Shown in pieces: positions 6,018 to 58,113 of a stretch of 64,000 nucleotides of DNA (within the stretch, counting starts at the first letter, position 1; every line of letters starts with the position of its first letter). The translations under genes and the position numbers were made by a program. This DNA comes from an uncultured Chloroflexota bacterium. GTDB taxonomy: Bacteria; Chloroflexota; Dehalococcoidia; CAUJGQ01. The notes beneath the pieces were generated by a model. It did no database searches. It saw nothing but the letters and a program-made list of their open reading frames with translations, and had not been told where the DNA came from. The stretch is from the NCBI GenBank assembly GCA_937879875.1, contig CALFMN010000244.1, positions 46,433 through 110,432 on the forward strand. Reading direction: 5' to 3'.

Positions 6018-6725
6018 CTACTGCTGCGCTGCCTGCGCCTTTTGGTCCAGCAGGTCGATCAGCGGTTGCAGAGCGTCGAGCGAGGCCTTGTCGGGCAGGA
6101 AGAACTCGCCCACGCCGAGGATGATGCGTCCGCGCCGCCAGGCGATCGAGTAGCCGATCTGGCCGTTGCCGGTCACCTGAATCGCGAACGACTGCTCGCC
6201 GAGCGGCTGCGGCAGCGTGATCTCCTGGTACTGTGTCCCAGCCGCCGGGCGCGGATACTGGTCGAAATACTGCTTCGCGCCGGCCGCGTCCTTCCACACG
6301 TCGATGGTAACGCCGGCGCCTCCCGGGCTGTCGGGCGTCGTGATCTGCCGCAGGTAGCCGCCGAGCCGGCCCGTCGTGTTCATCAGGTCGAGCACGGCCG
6401 CCGGATTTTCGAAGCCGCTCACCGCGGCCTCGTTCGGCTGATAGGCCTCGAATTGACCGAAGCCGAAGCCCGGCGACCTGCCGCCCGGCTTCGGCCGCAC
6501 CTGCTCGGTGATATCGGTCACGGCCTTCGGCGGCGCTCCCGGCGGCTCCAGGGAGACGCCCGGCGTCGGGCTGCCGCGTTGCGCCTGCGCGGGCGCGGCC
6601 GTCTGTGCAGGCGGCGCCGTCGGCCCGGCTGCGGTGGGCGACGTGGCCTTTTTGTTGTTCGAGCCTCCGCACGCGGCCAGTGCCAGCAGCGCGGCGGGAA
6701 CGACGAGGATCACGAGCCGGCGCAT
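6018..6725 (-). CDS. Secreted lipoprotein of unknown function (paralog 1)
   Basis: It has the signal peptide plus lipobox MRRLVILVVPAALLALAAC, followed by an Ala/Pro/Thr-rich linker. The conserved C-terminal domain ends SIAWRRGRIILGVGE...LDQKAQAAQQ. Confidence 0.7.
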   Translation of the reverse strand: MRRLVILVVPAALLALAACGGSNNKKATSPTAAGPTAPPAQTAAPAQAQRGSPTPGVSLEPPGAPPKAVTDITEQVRPKPGGRSPGFGFGQFEAYQPNEAAVSGFENPAAVLDLMNTTGRLGGYLRQITTPDSPGGAGVTIDVWKDAAGAKQYFDQYPRPAAGTQYQEITLPQPLGEQSFAIQVTGNGQIGYSIAWRRGRIILGVGEFFLPDKASLDALQPLIDLLDQKAQAAQQ

Positions 6726-6912: not shown

Positions 6913-7824
6913 CTATGGCCCCTGCGCCGCCTGCGCCTTCGCATCGAGGATGGCCGCGATCTGCAGCAGGTGGTCCAGCGCCGCCTGCCCCGAGGCCGGC
7001 TCGCCCACACCCAGCACCACGCGCCCGCGCCGCCAGGCGATCGACGTACCGCTGCCCGCGCCGATCGCGTACTGATAGGCGGTGCTCTGGTCGCCGAGCG
7101 GCGATGGCAGCGTAAACTGCTGCGGCTTCACCTCGGCGGGCGGGCTGGGGAACTGGTCGAAGTAGGCTTTCGCGCCCGCCTCGTCCTGCCAGATCTCGAT
7201 CGAGACGCCGATGCCCGAGGAACTGTCGGGCGAGTTGATCTGCTGGACGAAGCCGTCGAGCCGGCCGGTGTCGTTGAACAGCTTCAGCACCGCCTGCGGG
7301 TCGGCATAGCCGTTGATCGCCTGCGCGTTCGCTTCGTGCGCCGAGAGCCCGCCAACGCTGTAGCCGGAAGGCAGATCCGTGGCGGTCAGCATGATGCGGT
7401 CGATCAGGTCGGCGGCCGAGGCGCCGCTGCCGGAGGCTGCCGAAGCCGCCGCGGTCGAGGAGGGTTCCGCTCCGGCCGGCGCCGCTGCTGCGGCCGTGCC
7501 CGCGGCCGTTGCGGAAGGGGCGCGAGTCGGGACGGCTGTGCTGGCGGCCGCAGTCGGACTCGGCGCAGCAGCAGGTGCAGCAGCGGCGGTCGCGGTTGGA
7601 CTCCCTCCCGCCACGGCCGGGAAGGGTGTACCGTTGCTGAGAGCGGCGCTCGGCGTGCCGCTGGCGGGCGTATGGGACGCGGCGGCGGCCGCCTGCGGCG
7701 TGCTCGGCGCCGCTGAAGCGGCCGGCGGCGTGGTCTTCGGCTTGTTCGACGAACTGCACGCCGTGCAGAGCACAAGGGCGCAGAGCGTCGCGGAGCAGGC
7801 AAGCTTGAGCAAAACGGTGGTCAC
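6913..7824 (-). CDS. Secreted lipoprotein of unknown function (paralog 2)
   Basis: A lipobox is present (LVLCTAC). A long A/P/T/S-rich linker precedes a C-terminal domain that aligns with the downstream paralog (GRLDGFVQQINSPDSSSGIGVSIEIWQDEAGAKAYFDQFP...SIAWRRGRVVLGVGE). Confidence 0.7.
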   Translation of the reverse strand: MTTVLLKLACSATLCALVLCTACSSSNKPKTTPPAASAAPSTPQAAAAASHTPASGTPSAALSNGTPFPAVAGGSPTATAAAAPAAAPSPTAAASTAVPTRAPSATAAGTAAAAAPAGAEPSSTAAASAASGSGASAADLIDRIMLTATDLPSGYSVGGLSAHEANAQAINGYADPQAVLKLFNDTGRLDGFVQQINSPDSSSGIGVSIEIWQDEAGAKAYFDQFPSPPAEVKPQQFTLPSPLGDQSTAYQYAIGAGSGTSIAWRRGRVVLGVGEPASGQAALDHLLQIAAILDAKAQAAQGP

Positions 7825-8920: not shown

Positions 8921-9106
8921 GCCCTCTATCCCCCGTCCCCTTTCCCCCAATCGTTGCCATCGCGCGGAGCGCGATCTGGGATGAGGGAAGGGGCGATCGT
9001 GCGCAGCACGACTCGGACGGTCTCGGGTTAACCATTCATCGATCGGATCGCTTCAGGCTGGATCGCCCCTCGCCCAGGATTGGGAGAGGGGAAGGGGGTG
9101 AGGGCC
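8921..9106. repeat. Family-B MITE-like palindromic repeat, copy 1
   Basis: The left arm is GGCCCTCTATCCCCCGTCCCCTTTCCCCCAATC... and the right arm is GATCGCCCCTCGCCCAGGATTGGGAGAGGGGAAGGGGGTGAGGGCC. A central GGGTTAACC is present. The element is homologous to the copies at 41855-42040 and 44888-45060. Confidence 0.6.
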
Positions 9107-11449
9107 CGCCGCCCGCATCGCGTTCCAGACCCGCTGCGGTGTCAGCGGCAGATCGATGTGGCGCACACCCAGCGGCGCCAGCGCATCCATCACCGCGTTG
9201 GCGATCGCCGGCACGCTGCCGATCGTGCCCGCTTCGCCCACGCCCTTGACGCCGAGCGGCGTGCGCGGCGAGGGCGTGACCGTATGGCCGATCGACATGT
9301 GCGGCATATCTTCGCTGTGCGGAATCGCGTAGTCCATGAAGCTGCCGGAAATGAGCTGGCCGTTTTCGTCGTAGACCACCTCTTCCAGCAGCGCCTGGCC
9401 CACCCCCTGCGCGATGCCGCCGTGCACCTGCCCGCGCACGATCAGCGGGTTGATCACCGGACCGCAGTCGTCTACCCCGTCGAAACGCAGCAGCGACACC
9501 GCGCCGGTGTCGCGATCCACTTCGACCATCGCTAAGTACGCGCCGAAGGGGAAGGTCATGCCCTGCGAGCCGAAGAAGTGCTGCGCTTCGAGGCCGGGCT
9601 CGTCGCCGGGCGCGGGCGCGCTGTAGGCGTGCGCGGCCACGCGCTGAAAGGCGAGGCCGCGGTCGGGCGCGTCGGCCGGCTCGATGCGGCCGTTGCGGAA
9701 GACAAGATCGTCTTCGTTCGCCTCGATCATGTTGGCGGCGACGCGGCGCATTTTCGCCTCGATCTCGCGCAGCGACTGATAGACCGCCGAACCGCCCATC
9801 ATCATGCTGCGGCTGCCAAAAGTCCCGATGCCCTGCGGCACGATGGCGGTATCGTGCTCGTGCAGCGTCACCGTGTCGGGATCGACGCCCAGCACTTCGG
9901 CCGCGAGCTGCGCGAAGACCGTCTCGTGGCCCTGGCCGTGCGCCGAAACGCCGGTTAACAACTCGACCGCGCCGCTCTGGTTCACACGCACCGCGCCGTA
10001 CTCCCAGGCCGCCGCGCCGCCGCCTTCGCTGGCCGCGCCGGGGCCGCAGCTCTCGACGTACGAGCAGATGCCGATGCCGACCAGCCGCCCGGCGGCGCGG
10101 GCCGCATCGCGCTCGCGCTTGAGCGCGGCGTAATCCACGTTCTCCAGCAGGGTGCTCAGCGCCTTCTCGTAGTCGCCGCTGTCGTAGAGCAGGCCGGTGG
10201 CCGTGCGATACGGGAAGGCGTCGGCGGGAATGAAGTTCTTACGGCGCAGCTCGACCGGGTCCATCGCCAGCTCGCGCGCCAGCAGATCCATCGCCCGCTC
10301 GCAGAAGTAGGTCGCTTCTGGCCGGCCGGCGCCGCGGTAGGCTGCCGTGGGCGACTTGTTGGTCAGCGCCTCGCTGAGCAGCACGCGGGCAGCGGGAAAT
10401 TTGTAGACGTTGGTGCAGAGCCGCTGCGTGTTGCCGAACAGGCCGACCGTGCTGGCGTCGCAGGTATGGCCCAAATCGGCGATGATGCTGAGCTTGAGGC
10501 CGAGCAGCGTGCCGTCGCGCCTGGCCGCCAGCTCGATCGTGCCGCTCTGGCCACGGCCGTGGCTGGTGGTCGTGAACGACTCCATGCGCGTCTCGATCCA
10601 CTTGACCGGCCGCTCGAAGCGCCGCGCCAGGAACGCGGCGCAGGCTTCTTCGGAGTAGACATTGCCTTTGGCGCCGAAGCCGCCGCCCATCTCCGGCGCG
10701 ATCACACGCACGCGTCCTTCGGGAACGCCGGTCATGCGCGAGAGCGTGGCGCGCACGCGGTGCGGCGCCTGCGAAGTGACCCAGATCGTGAAACGATCGT
10801 CCCAGCGATCGTAGCGCGCCAGCACGCCGCGCGTTTCGATCGCGGAGGGCGCGAGGCGGGCGGCCGACATGCGCTGCTTCACGACGATATCCGCCTGCGC
10901 GAACGCCGCCTCGATCTCAGCTTCTGAGGCGCCGAACGGCACGCCCCGCAGCACGGCGTTGCCGGGAAAGTCGTCCCAGAGCTGCGGCGCGCCCGGCGCC
11001 AGCGCCGCCTCCGGATCGACCACGGCGGGCAACTCGTCATACTCGACCTCGACCAGGTCGACCGCGTCCTCCGCGACGTAACGGTCACTCGCCAGCACCG
11101 CGGCGACCGACTCGCCCACGCGCCGCACCTTCTCCCGCGCCAGCACGAAGCGGGGCGGCTGCGGCGGACCGGGATTCGCCGGGAACGGCGGCGCGAAGTC
11201 GGCGGCTTCGGCGCCCGTCACCACGGCGAAGACACCCGGCAAGGCGAGCGCCGCGCTCACGTCGATCGAAACGATGCGGGCGTGCGCGTGCGGGGAGCGT
11301 ACGAAAGCGAGGTGCAGCAGATCGGGCAGATGCATGTCGTCGATGTAGGTTGCACTGCCGGTAATCAGGCGCGGGTCTTCGCGCCGTTTCACCGGCGTTC
11401 CGAACCAACGCGCATGCAGAAATGGCCCGGTGCTGTGCTCGTCAGCCAC
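9053..11449 (-). CDS. Xanthine dehydrogenase/aldehyde oxidase/CoxL-family molybdopterin-binding large subunit
   Basis: An approximately 800-aa Mo-hydroxylase large-subunit-like sequence (FGTPVKRREDPRLITGSATYIDD..., GGGFG, MMGGS motifs). Start was set at GTG (VADEHS) with an AGGAAG Shine-Dalgarno. The last ~17 codons lie inside repeat copy B1. Confidence 0.8.
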   Translation of the reverse strand: MADEHSTGPFLHARWFGTPVKRREDPRLITGSATYIDDMHLPDLLHLAFVRSPHAHARIVSIDVSAALALPGVFAVVTGAEAADFAPPFPANPGPPQPPRFVLAREKVRRVGESVAAVLASDRYVAEDAVDLVEVEYDELPAVVDPEAALAPGAPQLWDDFPGNAVLRGVPFGASEAEIEAAFAQADIVVKQRMSAARLAPSAIETRGVLARYDRWDDRFTIWVTSQAPHRVRATLSRMTGVPEGRVRVIAPEMGGGFGAKGNVYSEEACAAFLARRFERPVKWIETRMESFTTTSHGRGQSGTIELAARRDGTLLGLKLSIIADLGHTCDASTVGLFGNTQRLCTNVYKFPAARVLLSEALTNKSPTAAYRGAGRPEATYFCERAMDLLARELAMDPVELRRKNFIPADAFPYRTATGLLYDSGDYEKALSTLLENVDYAALKRERDAARAAGRLVGIGICSYVESCGPGAASEGGGAAAWEYGAVRVNQSGAVELLTGVSAHGQGHETVFAQLAAEVLGVDPDTVTLHEHDTAIVPQGIGTFGSRSMMMGGSAVYQSLREIEAKMRRVAANMIEANEDDLVFRNGRIEPADAPDRGLAFQRVAAHAYSAPAPGDEPGLEAQHFFGSQGMTFPFGAYLAMVEVDRDTGAVSLLRFDGVDDCGPVINPLIVRGQVHGGIAQGVGQALLEEVVYDENGQLISGSFMDYAIPHSEDMPHMSIGHTVTPSPRTPLGVKGVGEAGTIGSVPAIANAVMDALAPLGVRHIDLPLTPQRVWNAMRAAGPHPLPLSQSWARGDPA

Positions 11450-14688: not shown

Positions 14689-14740
14689 GATCTGCTTGCC
14701 CTGCATTGCTACAATCAAGAGACAGCGCGGCGGTGAAACG

Positions 14741-15049
14741 ATGACCACGAGCACACCGATCGATATCGGTACGCTGATCTACTCGCGCCCCGATCTGCAT
14801 TCCGGCAAGCCCTGCCTCACCGGCACGGGCATGACGGTGCATGCCGTCGCCGGAATGTATCTGGCCGGAATGAGCGCCGAGCAAATCCAGTCCGAGTTTC
14901 CCGATCTGGACCTCACCCTCTTCTATGCGGCGATCACCTACTACCTCGCGAATCGGACCCGGATCGACACCGAGCTGGCAGAGGAACAGGCGCTCGCCGA
15001 GGAACTCGCGGCCCGCTACCCGCAAGGGTGGCGCCGCGAGAATATGTAG
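14741..15049 (+). CDS. DUF433-domain protein (putative antitoxin), copy 1
   Basis: MTTSTPIDIGTLIYSRPDLHSGKPCLTGTGMTVHAVAGMY... is a typical DUF433 sequence. It is immediately followed by a DUF5615 gene. Confidence 0.75.
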   Translation: MTTSTPIDIGTLIYSRPDLHSGKPCLTGTGMTVHAVAGMYLAGMSAEQIQSEFPDLDLTLFYAAITYYLANRTRIDTELAEEQALAEELAARYPQGWRRENM

Positions 15050-15055
15050 CGCCGG

Positions 15056-15412
15056 GTGTTTTCGCTGTATCTGGACGAAGACAGCATGGGCCGCGGTCTG
15101 CTTACTGGCCTGCGTCGGCGCGGCGTCGACGTGGTCACGGTGCAGGAGGAACGCAGACGCGGCCAGCCGGACATCGCCCAGCTTGAGTGGGCGACGCGGC
15201 ACGGTCGTGTGCTGTACACCAAGAACGCCGGGGACTTCCAGCGCCTCCACACCGAGATCCTTCTCAGCGAGCGACATCATGCGGGTATCATCGTCTTGAC
15301 CGGGCGCAGCATTTCCGTGGGCCATCAGCTACGTGGCTTGTTCACGATCTTGGACGGACGCACGGCTGAAGAGATGATCGATGCCCTCGAATACCTCAGT
15401 AATTGGCGGTGA
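15056..15412 (+). CDS. DUF5615-family PIN-like protein (putative toxin)
   Basis: VFSLYLDEDSMGRGLLTGLRRRGVDVVTVQE...GRVLYTKNAGDF matches the DUF5615 pattern. It has a GTG start 6 nt after the DUF433 stop. Confidence 0.7.
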   Translation: MFSLYLDEDSMGRGLLTGLRRRGVDVVTVQEERRRGQPDIAQLEWATRHGRVLYTKNAGDFQRLHTEILLSERHHAGIIVLTGRSISVGHQLRGLFTILDGRTAEEMIDALEYLSNWR

Positions 15413-15416
15413 AGCG

Positions 15417-15731
15417 ATGACCACGAGCACACCGGTCGATATCGGCACGCTGATCTACTCCCGCCCGGACCTGCACTCGGGCAAGCCCTGTCTTGCCGGC
15501 ACGGGCATGACCGTGCACGCCGTCGCCGCACGCTACAACCGCGGCATGAGCGCCGAGCAGATTCAGGACTCGATTCCCGACCTCGACCTGAGTTTGTTCT
15601 ACGCGGCGATCACCTACTACCTCGCCAACCGCGCCCGCATCGACGCCGACTTCGCAGCCGACGCGGCTCTGTACGACGAACTCGCGGCCCGTTACCCCAA
15701 CGGTTGGCGCCGCGAGAACATGCGCCCCTGA
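15417..15731 (+). CDS. DUF433-domain protein, copy 2 (recent paralog of 14741..15049)
   Basis: About 85% identical to copy 1 (MTTSTPVDIGTLIYSRPDLHSGKPCLAGTGMTVHAVAARY...). It starts 4 nt after the DUF5615 stop. Confidence 0.75.
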   Translation: MTTSTPVDIGTLIYSRPDLHSGKPCLAGTGMTVHAVAARYNRGMSAEQIQDSIPDLDLSLFYAAITYYLANRARIDADFAADAALYDELAARYPNGWRRENMRP

Positions 15732-37973: not shown

Positions 37974-38003
37974 GGCCACCGTCCGTCCACACGCGGCGCG
38001 CCT

Positions 38004-38095
38004 AACCCTGACTTCCCTGGCGGGAAGTCTGTCCCTGGGAAGGGACAGATATCGCTTCAGCGATGTCAGGGTTAGGTGCCCCGCGCTCGGCAATG
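38004..38095. repeat. Family-A MITE-like repeat, short (internally deleted) copy
   Basis: The termini GCGCCTAACCCTGAC ... GTCAGGGTTAGGTGCCCC are present. Internal hairpins (TCTGTCCCTGGGAAGGGACAGA; ATCGCTTCAGCGAT) correspond to the fused left and right ends of the long copies. Confidence 0.65.
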
Positions 38096-41854: not shown

Positions 41855-42040
41855 GGCCCTCTTCCTCTCTTGTGCGTTGGAAGTCTCCGATGGTTGCGCT
41901 GCGCTCTGGCTCCCACTCCTGGGAGAAGGAGACGATCCAGCGCCGAGCGTGCCGAGCGCTATACGGTTAGCCCGACACCCTCTCGATCTGGCGATCAACG
42001 ATCGCCCCTCGCCCAGGATTGGGAGAGGGGTCGGGGGTGA
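41855..42040. repeat. Family-B MITE-like palindromic repeat, copy 2
   Basis: The left arm is GGCCCTCTTCCTCTC...CTCCCACTCCTGGGAGAAGGAGAC and the right arm is GATCGCCCCTCGCCCAGGATTGGGAGAGGGGTCGGGGGTGAGGGCC. It lies between the HAD start codon and the rhodanese stop. Confidence 0.6.
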
Positions 42041-42051
42041 GGGCCGAAATG

Positions 42052-42381
42052 CTAGCCCATCGGCAGGCCGGCGTCGCGCCAGGTATCGGTGCCGCCCTCG
42101 ACGTTGAAGAGCCGGGTCTTGCCGCCGGCGGCGGCGTACTCGCAGGCGAGGGCGCTGCGTTGCCCCATCTTGCAGATGAACAGCACGTCTCTGTCGTCCG
42201 GCAGTTCGTCGCGGCGGTTGTAGACGCTGTTCAGCGGGATCAGCGTCGTGCCGGCAGCGTGATAGTCGGCGAACTCGCCCGGCTCGCGCACGTCGATGAA
42301 GGCGGCGTCGCCTTTGTCCAACATCTCCTTCGCCTCTTGCACCGAGACGCGGGTAAACGGTTCCTGCGGATTCTTGACCGC
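42052..42381 (-). CDS. Single-domain rhodanese (sulfurtransferase)
   Basis: The active-site loop FICKMGQRS is present within DVREPGEFADYHAAG...LFICKMGQRS. Start is probably GTG (VAVKNPQ). Confidence 0.7.
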   Translation of the reverse strand, partial: AVKNPQEPFTRVSVQEAKEMLDKGDAAFIDVREPGEFADYHAAGTTLIPLNSVYNRRDELPDDRDVLFICKMGQRSALACEYAAAGGKTRLFNVEGGTDTWRDAGLPMG

Positions 42382-44618: not shown

Positions 44619-44879
44619 ATGCGCGCCGTATTCGTCATGGTGAAGGTTGAGCCGGGGCAGGTCGAGTCGGTCGCGCAGCACATCGGCGATCTCGAGGCGT
44701 TCTCCGAAGGATATTCGATCTCCGGCGCCTACGACCTGCTGATGAAGTTCTACATCGAGGACATCGACCACCTGGGCCGGCTGGTGAACCACGAGATTCA
44801 GACGATTCCCCACGTGCGCGAGACGTTCACGCTGCTGACGTTCAACGCATTTCCCGCGCCCGGCGACGCTCGGCAGTGA
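44619..44879 (+). CDS. Stand-alone Lrp/AsnC C-terminal (RAM) ligand-binding domain protein
   Basis: MRAVFVMVKVEPGQVESVAQHIGDLEAFSEGYSISGAYDLLMKFYIEDIDHLGRLVNHEIQTIPHVRETFTLL is a typical AsnC_trans_reg domain. It has no DNA-binding HTH. Confidence 0.8.
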   Translation: MRAVFVMVKVEPGQVESVAQHIGDLEAFSEGYSISGAYDLLMKFYIEDIDHLGRLVNHEIQTIPHVRETFTLLTFNAFPAPGDARQ

Positions 44880-44887
44880 TAGCGCGG

Positions 44888-45060
44888 CGTTCGGCCCTCA
44901 CCACCGTCCCCTCGCCCAATCCTGGGCGAGGGGCGATCCCGGGTTGGAGCGATCCGTAGCGGCGTCGGGTTAACCGTTTTGTCAGTCGGACCGCTCACTG
45001 GTGGATCGTCTCCTTCTCCCAGGATTGGGAGAAGGAGACAGGAGAGGTTGAGGGCCGAAA
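44888..45060. repeat. Family-B MITE-like palindromic repeat, copy 3 (full length, clean TIRs)
   Basis: The left terminal repeat is GGCCCTCACCACCGTCCCCTCGCCCAATCCTGGGCGAGGGGCGATC. The right terminal repeat is GATCGTCTCCTTCTCCCAGGATTGGGAGAAGGAGAC...TTGAGGGCC. A central GGGTTAACC is present. The element fills almost the whole gap between two convergent stop codons. Confidence 0.65.
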
Positions 45061-49141: not shown

Positions 49142-49272
49142 GGCTTGCCTCCCGCCTTTTCCTGCGAGTTTTTACCACTGGTATAATACGGTCATACGCC
49201 CAGAAGCCGCCGCCTGTCAAGTATGCAGAAAAGAGCGCAGCGCCTTCTCAGATGCCGCCATGGCCGCCCCAC

Positions 49273-49502
49273 GCGGGGCACCTAACCCTGCTTTGCCTGG
49301 CGGCAAAGCTGTCCCTTCCCGAAGCGGGAAGGGACTTTTGGAGCGTTCCCAGCGCCATGAGACGGCGGCGGGGCTGGGGTGTCCTTGTGGGACAGGCGCC
49401 AGGCTCGTCTCCCAGCCGCCCCGTCGTTCCTCGACCCTCACCCTTCCTGTGTCGGGAAGGGACAGATTTCGCTGAAGCGAAATCAGGGTTAGGTGCCCCG
49501 CG
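49273..49502. repeat. Family-A MITE-like repeat, long copy
   Basis: The termini GCGGGGCACCTAACCCTG ... CAGGGTTAGGTGCCCCGCG are present. Internal conserved blocks include GGACTTTTGGAGCGTTCCCAGCGCC, GACGGCGGCGGGGCTGGGGTGTCC and CCCTTCCTGTGTCGGGAAGGGACAG. It lies in the divergent region between the diiron paralog 2 and tetR. Confidence 0.7.
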
Positions 49503-53479: not shown

Positions 53480-53707
53480 CGCGGGCACCTAACCCTGACC
53501 TCGCAGGCGAGGTCTGTCCCTTCCCGAAACTGGAAGGGACTTCTGGAGCGTTCCCGGCGCCGTGCGACGGCGGCGGGGCTGCGGTGTCCCTGCGAGACAC
53601 GCGGATGGATTGCCTTCCACCCAGCCGATTGTCCTCGAACCAAACCCTTCCTGTGTCGGGAAGGGACAGCTTTGCCGCCAGGCAAAGCAGGGTTAGGTGC
53701 CCTGCGC
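53480..53707. repeat. Family-A MITE-like repeat, long copy
   Basis: The termini GCGGGCACCTAACCCTGA ... CAGGGTTAGGTGCCCTGCG are present. The internal blocks match those of the other long copies. Confidence 0.7.
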
Positions 53708-57883: not shown

Positions 57884-58113
57884 GGCGGGGCACCTAACCC
57901 TGACCTCGCAGGCGAGGTCTGTCCCTTCCCGAGGCGGGAAAGGGACTTCCAGAGCGTTCCCGGCGGCGCCGGACGGCGGCGGGGCTGGGGTGTCCTTGCG
58001 GGTCGTGCGGAGGGAACGGTTCCTGCCTTTCCGGTGATCCTCGAACCTTACCCTTCCAGTTTCGGGAAGGGACAGACTTCGCTTCAGCGAAGTCAGGGTT
58101 AGGTGCCCCGCGC
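57884..58113. repeat. Family-A MITE-like repeat, long copy
   Basis: The termini GGCGGGGCACCTAACCCTGA ... TCAGGGTTAGGTGCCCCGCGCGG are present. The internal blocks are the same as in the copies at 49273 and 53480. Confidence 0.7.

What the first reader, a model, noticed from the sequence alone, without database searches (positions are those of the whole stretch)
49273..49502. Family-A structured repeat: four copies of a TIR-bounded, hairpin-rich element in 64 kb
Four intergenic copies share near-identical termini (GGGGCACCTAACCCTGA ... TCAGGGTTAGGTGCCCC). They lie at 38004-38095, 49273-49502, 53480-53707 and 57884-58113. The three long copies of about 230 bp also share internal blocks: a left hairpin pair (CCTCGCAGGCGAGG; GTCCCTTCCCGA..GGGAAGGGAC), the block GGACTTNTGGAGCGTTCCCGGCGCC...GACGGCGGCGGGGCTGGGGTGTCC, a variable centre, and a right hairpin (CCCTTCC..TCGGGAAGGGACAG) followed by a short palindrome. 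The 92-bp copy at 38004 is exactly the left and right ends fused. That is the pattern expected of an internally deleted MITE. No ORF is conserved across copies, so a structured ncRNA or MITE is more likely than a gene. Three copies sit between convergent gene ends. One sits in the divergent promoter region between a diiron gene and tetR, where it could affect regulation. I do not recognise this sequence as a named REP/MITE family.
Basis: seen in the sequence. Interest (0 to 1): 0.7.

Follow-up and report, generated by a model that had tools for sequence, protein, structure and literature searches.

The report
Nested-palindrome repeat element, whalefall-1 relative
The four repeats are real copies of a non-coding, hairpin-within-hairpin DNA element found at over 100 places between genes in one uncultivated bacterium, and its closest catalogued relative, the 'whalefall-1 RNA', turns out to be one arm of the same kind of element.

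Summary
Four copies (37992-38085, 49272-49502, 53480-53706, 57884-58112) share inverted termini CGCGGGGCACCTAACCCTG (8 termini against 0.08 expected by chance). They belong to a family with at least 104 distinct extragenic sites (142 profile hits in ~979 kb) in one uncultivated, probably Chloroflexota, population.

Each arm is an invariant terminus, then a hypervariable but always base-paired hairpin (H1), then an invariant GTCCCTTCCCG/CGGGAAGGGAC hairpin. Size classes (~60, ~95, ~221, ~250, ~340 bp) are nested versions of one palindrome. The element is absent from the same intergenic sites in relatives.

It differs from a textbook MITE:
- There is no variable target-site duplication.
- No parent transposon or transposase was found in ~1 Mb.
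- No two copies are more than 89% identical, yet specific blocks are 90-99% conserved.
- Variable segments are unlinked between copies.

Each arm matches Rfam whalefall-1 (RF01762) over the full model but below threshold (20.5-33.7 bits; cut-off 37). The published whalefall-1 alignment shows that 12 of its 16 "RNAs" are the two arms of six such elements.

Best reading: a REPIN/MITE-like interspersed palindromic element with an unknown mobilising enzyme. It is a new variant of a known kind, of moderate interest.

The parts
49272..49502 (.). Focal long copy (231 bp) in the divergent diiron-like / tetR intergenic region
   Evidence: member of alignment A2
49272..49290 (+). Left terminus CGCGGGGCACCTAACCCTG (inverted repeat of 49484-49502)
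   Evidence: 90-100% conserved across 74 copies
49291..49308 (+). Left variable hairpin H1 (CTTTGCC TGGC GGCAAAG)
   Evidence: 6 of 7 pairs carry two-sided compensatory changes in 11-32 of 74 copies
49309..49335 (+). Left invariant hairpin CTGTCCCTTCCCG-AAG-CGGGAAGGGAC
   Evidence: helix 3: 97.8% paired, never varies in a compensated way
49336..49374 (+). Extended left-arm blocks TT(T/C)TGGAGCGTTCC ... GACGGCGGCGGGGC (present on both sides in the ~340-bp symmetric members)
49378..49395 (+). Central hairpin GTGTCC-TTGT-GGGACA(C/G)
   Evidence: (helix 4, 83.6% paired)
49441..49465 (+). Right inner hairpin CCCTTCC-TGTGTC-GGGAAGGG followed by ACAG
   Evidence: helices 5-6
49466..49483 (+). Right variable hairpin H1 (ATTTCGC TGAA GCGAAAT)
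   Evidence: helix 7
49484..49502 (+). Right terminus CAGGGTTAGGTGCCCCGCG
49438..49495 (+). Right arm, full-length sub-threshold match to Rfam RF01762 whalefall-1 (22.7 bits, gathering 37)
49279..49337 (-). Left arm, full-length sub-threshold match to RF01762 on the opposite strand (20.5 bits)
53480..53706 (.). Long copy (227 bp) between convergent DEAD-box helicase and HpcH/HpaI aldolase genes; absent from this site in L082 and L083-L086
57884..58112 (.). Long copy (229 bp) between convergent DeoC aldolase and glpX genes; absent from this site in L083-L086
37992..38085 (.). Short copy (94 bp): terminus-H1-single GTCCC/GGGAC hairpin-H1-terminus, 19 nt after the mnmE stop; left terminus has 2 mismatches

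Best explanation
Family A is a non-coding, nested-palindromic interspersed element of the REP/REPIN/MITE kind. It colonised the intergenic DNA of one uncultivated (probably Chloroflexota) lineage after that lineage split from its nearest sampled relatives. The building block is a ~56-nt arm: an invariant terminus (CGCGGGGCACCTAACCCTG), a hairpin whose shape but not sequence is conserved (H1), and an invariant GTCCCTTCCCG/CGGGAAGGGAC hairpin. Two arms in inverted orientation, with or without a core, make the ~60, ~95, ~221, ~250 and ~340-bp members. I infer that the arms are recognition modules for a trans-acting protein that reads the invariant blocks by sequence and H1 by shape, most likely on folded single-stranded or cruciform DNA. 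I also infer that insertion uses a mechanism that leaves no variable target-site duplication (an HUH/RAYT-like, serine/tyrosine-recombinase-like or fixed-CG mechanism). Shown here: the repeat, its architecture, copy number, extragenic location, absence from syntenic sites in relatives, lack of a target duplication, H1 covariation, mosaic conservation, and kinship with whalefall-1. Inferred only: mobility in trans, the single-strand or hairpin intermediate, the enzyme class, and any present-day host function.
For: - Chance excluded: 8 termini against 0.08 expected.
- Family size: 99 pairs at 2 mismatches; at 3 mismatches 109 pairs giving 104 unique sites; 142 profile regions in 978,561 bp. Almost all come from one population in two assemblies whose overlaps are 99.99-100% identical.
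- All copies are extragenic, many 2-60 nt after a stop codon.
- Syntenic loci of relatives with 89% and 70% identical orthologues lack the element at all three comparable sites: gaps of 94/42, 64 and 217 nt against 431, 340 and 459 nt, and no profile hit in those loci.
- Nested size series with shared modules.
- No target-site duplication above the shuffled-pair control at offsets 0-13 and lengths 2-9.
- H1: 77 distinct sequences in 173 arms, with most arms and all common variants forming perfect stems. 293 two-sided compensated cells against 109 +/- 10 in shuffles (0/500); covariation score 0.196 against at most 0.056 for slid controls. The termini and GTCCC hairpins are invariant.
- Both strands fold equally well and wobble pairs show no strand bias (70 against 56), as expected for a DNA-level palindrome.
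- Arms match RF01762 over the full model at 20.5-33.7 bits, best E 2.6e-5, always reading centre to end.
- 12 of the 16 published whalefall-1 sequences are six divergent pairs forming 145-169-nt elements with the same terminus-hairpin-CTGTCCC layout.
Against: - No enzyme candidate: no multi-copy transposase, no HUH/Y1 motif ORF and no composite element with these or relaxed termini. Only about 1 Mb of a probably multi-Mb genome was seen.
- No filled/empty polymorphism within the population; the assemblies are identical at the elements. Mobility therefore rests on comparison with fairly distant relatives whose intergenic DNA aligns poorly.
- No pair of copies exceeds 89% identity and variable segments are unlinked. 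This is unlike active MITE or REPIN populations and could mean per-copy host selection, not selfish spread.
- Loop sequences have a strong polarity: CUUG 27 against CAAG 3. The original whalefall-1 authors took CUUG loops as a sign of an RNA.
Confidence: 0.6

Rival explanations
1. Each arm is a small structured RNA gene or RNA domain of the whalefall-1 class. The DNA palindrome is secondary, and the conserved blocks bind an RNA-binding protein.
For: Full-model similarity to RF01762, which its authors rated as certainly an RNA on covariation and tetraloops. Strong covariation in H1. On the centre-to-end strand the loops are G(CUUG)C x27, G(CCUG)C x10 and C(GCAA)G x16, with only 3 flipped CAAG loops. 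Conserved blocks persist although copies are old. There is a weak orientation bias relative to transcription, 25 against 12.
Against: The sense strands of the two arms are opposite, so one transcript can carry only one arm in sense. Both strands of whole copies fold equally well. There is no G.U over A.C excess on either strand. No sigma-70-like promoter is found at the focal copy, and the single terminator-like hit is a weak match inside the right terminus, with no T-run beyond the element. Copies occur in every gene context at roughly background proportions. More than 100 copies of one sRNA gene in one genome would be unusual. Loop polarity is also what common descent of inverted modules would give.
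Confidence: 0.15
2. The copies are host-retained cis-acting elements (exapted repeats) that act where they sit. They could be 3'-end RNA stabilisers or terminators, or DNA sites for a nucleoid, topoisomerase or recombination protein, as REP/BIME elements are in enterobacteria. Mobility would be only their distant origin.
For: Many copies lie 2-60 nt after stop codons. Blocks are 90-99% conserved between saturated variable stretches in copies that are at most 89% alike. There is no subfamily structure. The copies are identical between assemblies. The genome holds a mosaic of related modules, including a near-invariant 21-mer that looks like a protein site.
Against: There is no T-run after the hairpin beyond the element. 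About a quarter of copies lie in divergent promoter regions, where a 3'-end role makes no sense. Relatives do without them at the same sites. No partner protein is known. This reading is compatible with the main explanation and is not a true alternative to it.
Confidence: 0.15
3. The elements are integron attC-like recombination sites, because the terminus contains ACCTAAC ... GTTAGGT, which fits RYYYAAC ... GTTRRRY.
For: The 7-nt core and inverse-core consensus is matched in all four copies, and the element is an imperfect palindrome whose structure is conserved more than its sequence in H1.
Against: The outer stem is a perfect 19-bp duplex with no unpaired central spacer or extrahelical bases. 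Copies are dispersed singly among syntenic housekeeping genes, not in cassette arrays. Sister families and whalefall-1 termini lack the AAC/GTT. Main members are 221 bp, outside the attC size range (own knowledge: 57-141 bp).
Confidence: 0.02
4. The copies are a local segmental duplication or fragments of a duplicated gene.
For: Four copies lie within 20 kb of one window.
Against: At least 104 sites on dozens of contigs have unrelated flanks. No frame is conserved. Flanks outside the termini are unrelated between copies.
Confidence: 0.01

Closest known systems
Whalefall-1 RNA motif (Rfam RF01762; Weinberg et al. 2010, PMC2864571)
   Same: Same arm layout and linear motifs: conserved C/U-rich hairpin, CAGA, variable covarying hairpin, then UCAGGGU.AGG tail. 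The G(CUUG)C and G(CCUG)C loops are shared. Every tested arm aligns over model positions 1-56. The published sequences occur as divergent pairs flanking a short core, so they are the arms of TIR-bounded palindromic elements like this one.
   Different: Scores of 20.5-33.7 bits are below the 37-bit gathering cut-off. The terminus is CACCTAACCCTG, not GUCCUCACCCUG. The host has 68% G+C against about 50%. Members here are 221 bp with extra arm blocks, against 145-169 nt. Whalefall-1 was described as a stand-alone sRNA of two hairpins plus a purine-rich tail, and its pairing into elements was not noted.
REP / REPIN elements mobilised by RAYT (IS200-like HUH tyrosine transposases); own knowledge of Bertels & Rainey 2011 and related work
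   Same: Extragenic location, hundreds of copies in one lineage, two inverted palindromic units forming a long hairpin, no target-site duplication, compensated stems, and absence from close relatives.
   Different: No RAYT/Y1 gene was found (weak test). The units are larger and compound (terminus + two hairpins), and the main form is 221 bp. There is no cloud of identical master copies (maximum identity 89%). The host is outside the Proteobacteria, where RAYTs are mostly known.
Classical bacterial MITEs such as Neisseria Correia elements (own knowledge: ~26-bp TIRs, TA duplication, 100-155 bp, size classes by internal deletion)
   Same: Terminal inverted repeats, small non-coding size, intergenic spread, and long and short forms related by loss of internal sequence.
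   Different: No target-site duplication, no cognate IS, and highly uneven conservation with a hypervariable compensated hairpin.
BIMEs (bacterial interspersed mosaic elements of E. coli; own knowledge)
   Same: Elements are built from a small set of modules in different combinations. This genome also has a sister subfamily, a second TIR-bounded family and a 21-mer module that inserts into both.
   Different: The module sequences are unrelated, and protein partners (IHF and gyrase for BIMEs) are unknown here.

Membership tests
MITE (non-autonomous derivative of a DDE transposon) | Terminal inverted repeats | tested here: met
   19-nt termini, 8 of 8 in the window; 90-100% conserved in 74 copies
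MITE (non-autonomous derivative of a DDE transposon) | Target-site duplication of fixed length flanking each copy | tested here: not met
   No excess of direct repeats over shuffled left/right flank pairs at offsets 0-13 and lengths 2-9 in 104 copies. Only an invariant CG on both sides, which cannot be told apart from the terminus
MITE (non-autonomous derivative of a DDE transposon) | Autonomous parent element with the same termini encoding a transposase | tested here: inconclusive
   None in about 979 kb. The two distant terminus pairs are separate elements. No multi-copy transposase. None with relaxed termini. The whole genome was not available, and the genome-collection scan failed
MITE (non-autonomous derivative of a DDE transposon) | Dispersed multi-copy, non-coding, absent from orthologous sites of relatives | tested here: met
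   At least 104 sites; no conserved frame; absent at three syntenic sites
REP/REPIN-RAYT system | Extragenic palindromic units paired in inverted orientation, without target duplication | tested here: met
REP/REPIN-RAYT system | A RAYT (Y1 HUH transposase) gene in the genome, typically flanked by the repeats | tested here: inconclusive
   No ORF with an H.H ... Y...NP signature in six-frame translations of about 1 Mb. This was a motif screen only, on a partial genome
REP/REPIN-RAYT system | Population dominated by identical or near-identical master copies | tested here: not met
   Mean pairwise identity 74%, maximum 89%, and none of 2701 pairs above 90%
Rfam RF01762 whalefall-1 | Covariance-model score at or above the curated gathering score (37 bits) | tested here: not met
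   0 hits at gathering threshold; 15 arm hits at 20.5-33.7 bits
Rfam RF01762 whalefall-1 | [quoted passage not shown] | tested here: met
   Alignment to the model; H1 covariation; 27 CUUG and 10 CCUG loops among 183 arms on the model's strand; authors' description
Integron attC site | R''/R' boxes RYYYAAC / GTTRRRY | tested here: met
   ACCTAAC / GTTAGGT in the termini. The match is expected by chance at a few per cent for a 20-nt terminus (own estimate)
Integron attC site | Unpaired central spacer and extrahelical bases in the folded strand | tested here: not met
   The outer stem is a continuous 19-bp duplex, 92% of cells paired
Integron attC site | Arrays of cassettes next to an integron integrase | tested here: not met
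   Single copies between conserved, syntenic housekeeping genes

The most novel reading that the evidence does not exclude
The elements may not be selfish MITEs. They may instead be the DNA face of a conserved, still unknown nucleic-acid/protein system shared between distant bacteria (a whale-fall organism and this Chloroflexota-like one). In this reading, each ~56-nt arm is a functional module read outward from the element centre, as RNA or as folded single-stranded DNA. Its invariant blocks dock a dedicated protein, and its hypervariable, always-paired H1 hairpin acts as a per-copy identity tag. Every copy is kept under selection, with blocks 90-99% conserved although no two copies exceed 89% identity and segments assort freely. 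If so, an uncharacterised recombinase, nuclease or RNA-binding protein family co-occurs with this element superfamily.
Probability: 0.15. Interest if true: 0.75.

Novelty: new variant of a known kind. Interest (0 to 1): 0.5.

Why it matters
- **An Rfam family is reinterpreted.** The published whalefall-1 "sRNAs" are the paired arms of palindromic DNA elements. This gives that orphan motif its first relatives in an identifiable lineage.
- **The element sits between the textbook classes.** It has TIRs like a MITE, lacks a target duplication like a REPIN, and is mosaic like a BIME.
- **One feature suggests how it is recognised.** A hypervariable hairpin that is always compensated sits between invariant blocks, which suggests a partner protein that reads shape at one point and sequence at the others.
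- **The practical value is modest.** These repeats will seed assembly breaks and spurious ORFs in such MAGs. One copy sits between a tetR gene and its probable operator region.
- **The system may be more than a selfish repeat.** Per-copy conservation hints at this, but nothing here shows function.

Tried and rejected
- **14-mer scan of viral contigs.** 76 single chance hits, none paired.
- **Paper search for the terminus string.** It found only telomerase-RNA papers, because CCTAACCCT coincides with the telomere repeat.
- **blastn of a full copy against plasmids.** No match.
- **Apparent 62-nt insertion polymorphism (L162/L194 against L178).** An in-gene indel in an unrelated lower-GC organism that was picked up by a chance 18-mer.
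- **Empty-site alignments.** The comparisons with the 89% relative and the 70% relative confirm absence, but the sequences are too diverged to fix exact boundaries.
- **Two terminus pairs 3.5-4.3 kb apart.** These are separate elements with one degenerate end each, not parent transposons.
- **Multi-copy proteins.** All are ordinary paralogues.
- **HUH/Y1 motif screen.** Nothing found.
- **Relaxed-terminus search for composites.** Nothing found.
- **Open-frame translation as a protein probe for related elements elsewhere.** No hits.
- **Wobble-pair strand asymmetry as an RNA test.** No signal.
- **Differences between assemblies.** A single 7-nt indel outside the elements.
- **attC idea.** Rejected on structure, context and the lack of AAC/GTT in sister families.

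Full report
**1. Observation**

Bounded by their termini, they span 37992-38085, 49272-49502, 53480-53706 and 57884-58112.
- The 15-mer CAGGGTTAGGTGCCC occurs eight times as four inverted pairs, against 0.08 expected.
- The compound pattern terminus + 12-24 nt + CTGTCCCT occurs seven times, against none expected.
- All copies fold far better than shuffled controls on either strand, with z about -9.
- Rfam finds nothing at gathering thresholds anywhere in the window.

**2. Host and gene context**

The window is 68.4% G+C. GC3-based gene calls and Pfam place the copies as follows:

| Copy | Left neighbour | Right neighbour | Context |
|---|---|---|---|
| 37992-38085 | mnmE (+) | hpaB-like (+) | tandem |
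| 49272-49502 | ferritin-like/diiron (-) | tetR (+) | divergent |
| 53480-53706 | DEAD-box helicase (+) | HpcH aldolase (-) | convergent |
| 57884-58112 | DeoC (+) | glpX (-) | convergent |

So the contexts are two convergent, one tandem and one divergent, not three convergent. Exact-protein look-ups place the window on JGI metagenome contigs (3300007982 and 3300022557). The nearest named homologues are Chloroflexota ("Dehalococcoidia") MAGs.

**3. Family size and anatomy**

A metagenome scan with the 18-mer terminus returned 112 loci. About 100 come from two assemblies of one population, whose overlaps are 99.99-100% identical, and the rest are chance singletons.
- In these loci plus the window I find 104 unique paired elements and 142 profile-defined regions in 978,561 bp.
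- Sizes fall into nested classes: ~47 nt between cores (terminus-hairpin-terminus), ~86, 206-226 (mode 221, about 80 copies), 243-253, and 281-391.
- The longest members are symmetric. They carry terminus, H1, the GTCCC hairpin, GGACTTCTGGAGCGTTCC and GACGGCGGCGGGGC on both sides. The dominant 221-bp form has the extended blocks on one side only.
- All copies are extragenic, many sit 2-60 nt after a stop codon, and in six cases the upstream frame ends on the TAA inside the terminus. Context classes follow the background, and orientation relative to transcription is only weakly biased at 25 against 12.

**4. Evidence for insertion, and what is missing**

Syntenic loci from relatives whose aminotransferase is 89% (L082) or 70% (L083-L086) identical have short intergenic gaps and no profile hit:

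| Site | Window | Relatives |
|---|---|---|
| helicase \| aldolase | 431 nt | 94 and 42 nt |
| DeoC \| glpX | 340 nt | 64 nt |
| diiron \| tetR | 459 nt | 217 nt |

The classical MITE hallmarks fail:
- No direct repeat exceeds the shuffled-flank control at any offset from 0 to 13 or any length from 2 to 9. Only an invariant CG abuts the core on each side.
- The palindromic consensus further out (GGCCGCGCG) is a shared preference, not copy-specific pairing.
- No parent element was found. The two distant terminus pairs are unrelated neighbours, multi-copy proteins are ordinary paralogues, no HUH/Y1-like ORF is present, and relaxed termini give nothing.
- These negatives cover only about 1 Mb of the genome.

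**5. An unusual pattern of evolution**

- Among 74 oriented copies of the 221-bp class, mean pairwise identity is 74% and the maximum is 89%. Even so, the termini, both GTCCC hairpins and several core blocks are 90-99% conserved between near-saturated stretches.
- H1 has 77 distinct sequences in 173 arms, and most arms (all the common variants) form perfect 5-8-bp stems.
- On a structure I specified, cells with changes on both sides number 293 against 109 +/- 10 in shuffles (0/500). The covariation score is 0.196 against at most 0.056 when partners are slid. All of this comes from the two H1 helices, and every other stem is invariant.
- The two H1s of one element are identical in 14 of 74 cases (1.6 expected) and otherwise unrelated.
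- 72 of 74 left/right H1 combinations are unique, and distances in one variable segment do not predict distances in any other, with Mantel r about 0.
- This fits either a very old star-like radiation with strong constraint on blocks and on H1 pairing, or frequent short-tract exchange between copies. It does not fit recent MITE bursts.
- Wobble pairs show no strand bias, and the elements are identical between assemblies.

**6. Closest known relative**

- At permissive thresholds, each arm of the focal copy matches Rfam whalefall-1 over the whole 56-position model, on opposite strands.
- In 12 further loci, 13 arms do the same at 22.6-33.7 bits (gathering 37; best E 2.6e-5), and no other family recurs.
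- The alignment shows the same order: conserved hairpin, CAGA, variable hairpin, UCAGGGU.AGG.
[quoted passage not shown] It is the only paper in the library that mentions the motif.
- The authors' flanked alignment shows that 12 of the 16 representatives are six divergent pairs on the same contigs, which form 145-169-nt elements. Three of the other four (Contig168, 1327, 1741) have a full or partial mirror arm upstream.
- The purine-rich tail is therefore the right terminus, complementary to GUCCUCACCCUG upstream.
- Read from the centre outward, the arms here carry the same G(CUUG)C (27) and G(CCUG)C (10) loops, with only 3 flipped.
- By Rfam's own cut-off these arms are not members of RF01762, but they work like it and are plausibly distant kin.

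**7. Interpretation**

The best-supported reading (0.6) is a REPIN/MITE-like interspersed palindromic element. Its arms are recognition modules for an unidentified trans-acting protein, and it inserted without a variable target duplication.

The rivals are:
- arm-sized sRNA genes (0.15);
- exapted host cis-elements (0.15, compatible with the main reading);
- attC-like sites (0.02), rejected because the outer stem is a perfect duplex, the copies are not in arrays, and sister families lack the AAC/GTT;
- segmental duplication (0.01).

**8. Verdict**

The feature is real and well above chance. I rate it a new variant of a known kind, with interest 0.5. The points of interest are the reinterpretation of an Rfam family, the missing target duplication and missing enzyme, and the mosaic, per-copy conservation with a shape-only hairpin.

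Noticed in passing
window 41882-42055 (+), 44875-45040 (-), partial 9044-9112: A second small repeat family with its own inverted ends (GGCCCTC(T/A)TCC ... GGGGGTGAGGGCC) and internal hairpins. Its terminus shares CCTCACCC/GGGTGAGG with the published whalefall-1 termini, so it may belong to the same superfamily.
   Followed up: partly
window 41882-41930; loci e.g. L096 7979-8040, L147 359-450, L152 5375-5440: A near-invariant 21-mer module, GTCTCCGACGGTTGCGCTGCG, occurs 44 times in about 979 kb, singly or as 2-3 tandem 31-nt units. It is found inside family-A arms (splitting the GTCCC hairpin), at the left end of the second family, and alone. It looks like a protein-binding site or a third mobile module.
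   Followed up: partly
L115 2182-2264, L185 4410-4481, L188 10392-10452, L112 570-638: A sister subfamily of the element with the same layout but variant termini (GCCTACCCCTG ... CAGGGATAGGC) and a GTCCCCTCCCC/GGGGAGGGG inner hairpin.
   Followed up: no
window about 49170-49200: The block TTTTTACCACTGGTATAAT, which contains the palindrome TACCA-C-TGGTA and a TATAAT, is conserved with the 70%-identity relative next to the diiron-like gene. It is probably the TetR operator and -10 region. The element lies distal to it, between this block and tetR.
   Followed up: partly
window 14729-15046 vs 15405-15722; 6105-6399 vs 7000-7294: Two pairs of direct repeats (318 nt at 80% identity; about 295 nt at 70%) that are unrelated to family A.
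   Followed up: no
window 62427: The only difference from contigs L080/L081 over 15.9 kb is a 7-nt indel (CGCCCTA) in an intergenic stretch.
   Followed up: no
window termini, e.g. 49281-49289: The terminus contains CCTAACCCT, identical to the vertebrate telomere repeat unit run. This is why a literature string search returned only telomerase-RNA papers. It is a coincidence.
   Followed up: yes
whole window: No Rfam family reaches its gathering score anywhere in 64 kb, so there is not even a tRNA gene in this stretch.
   Followed up: no
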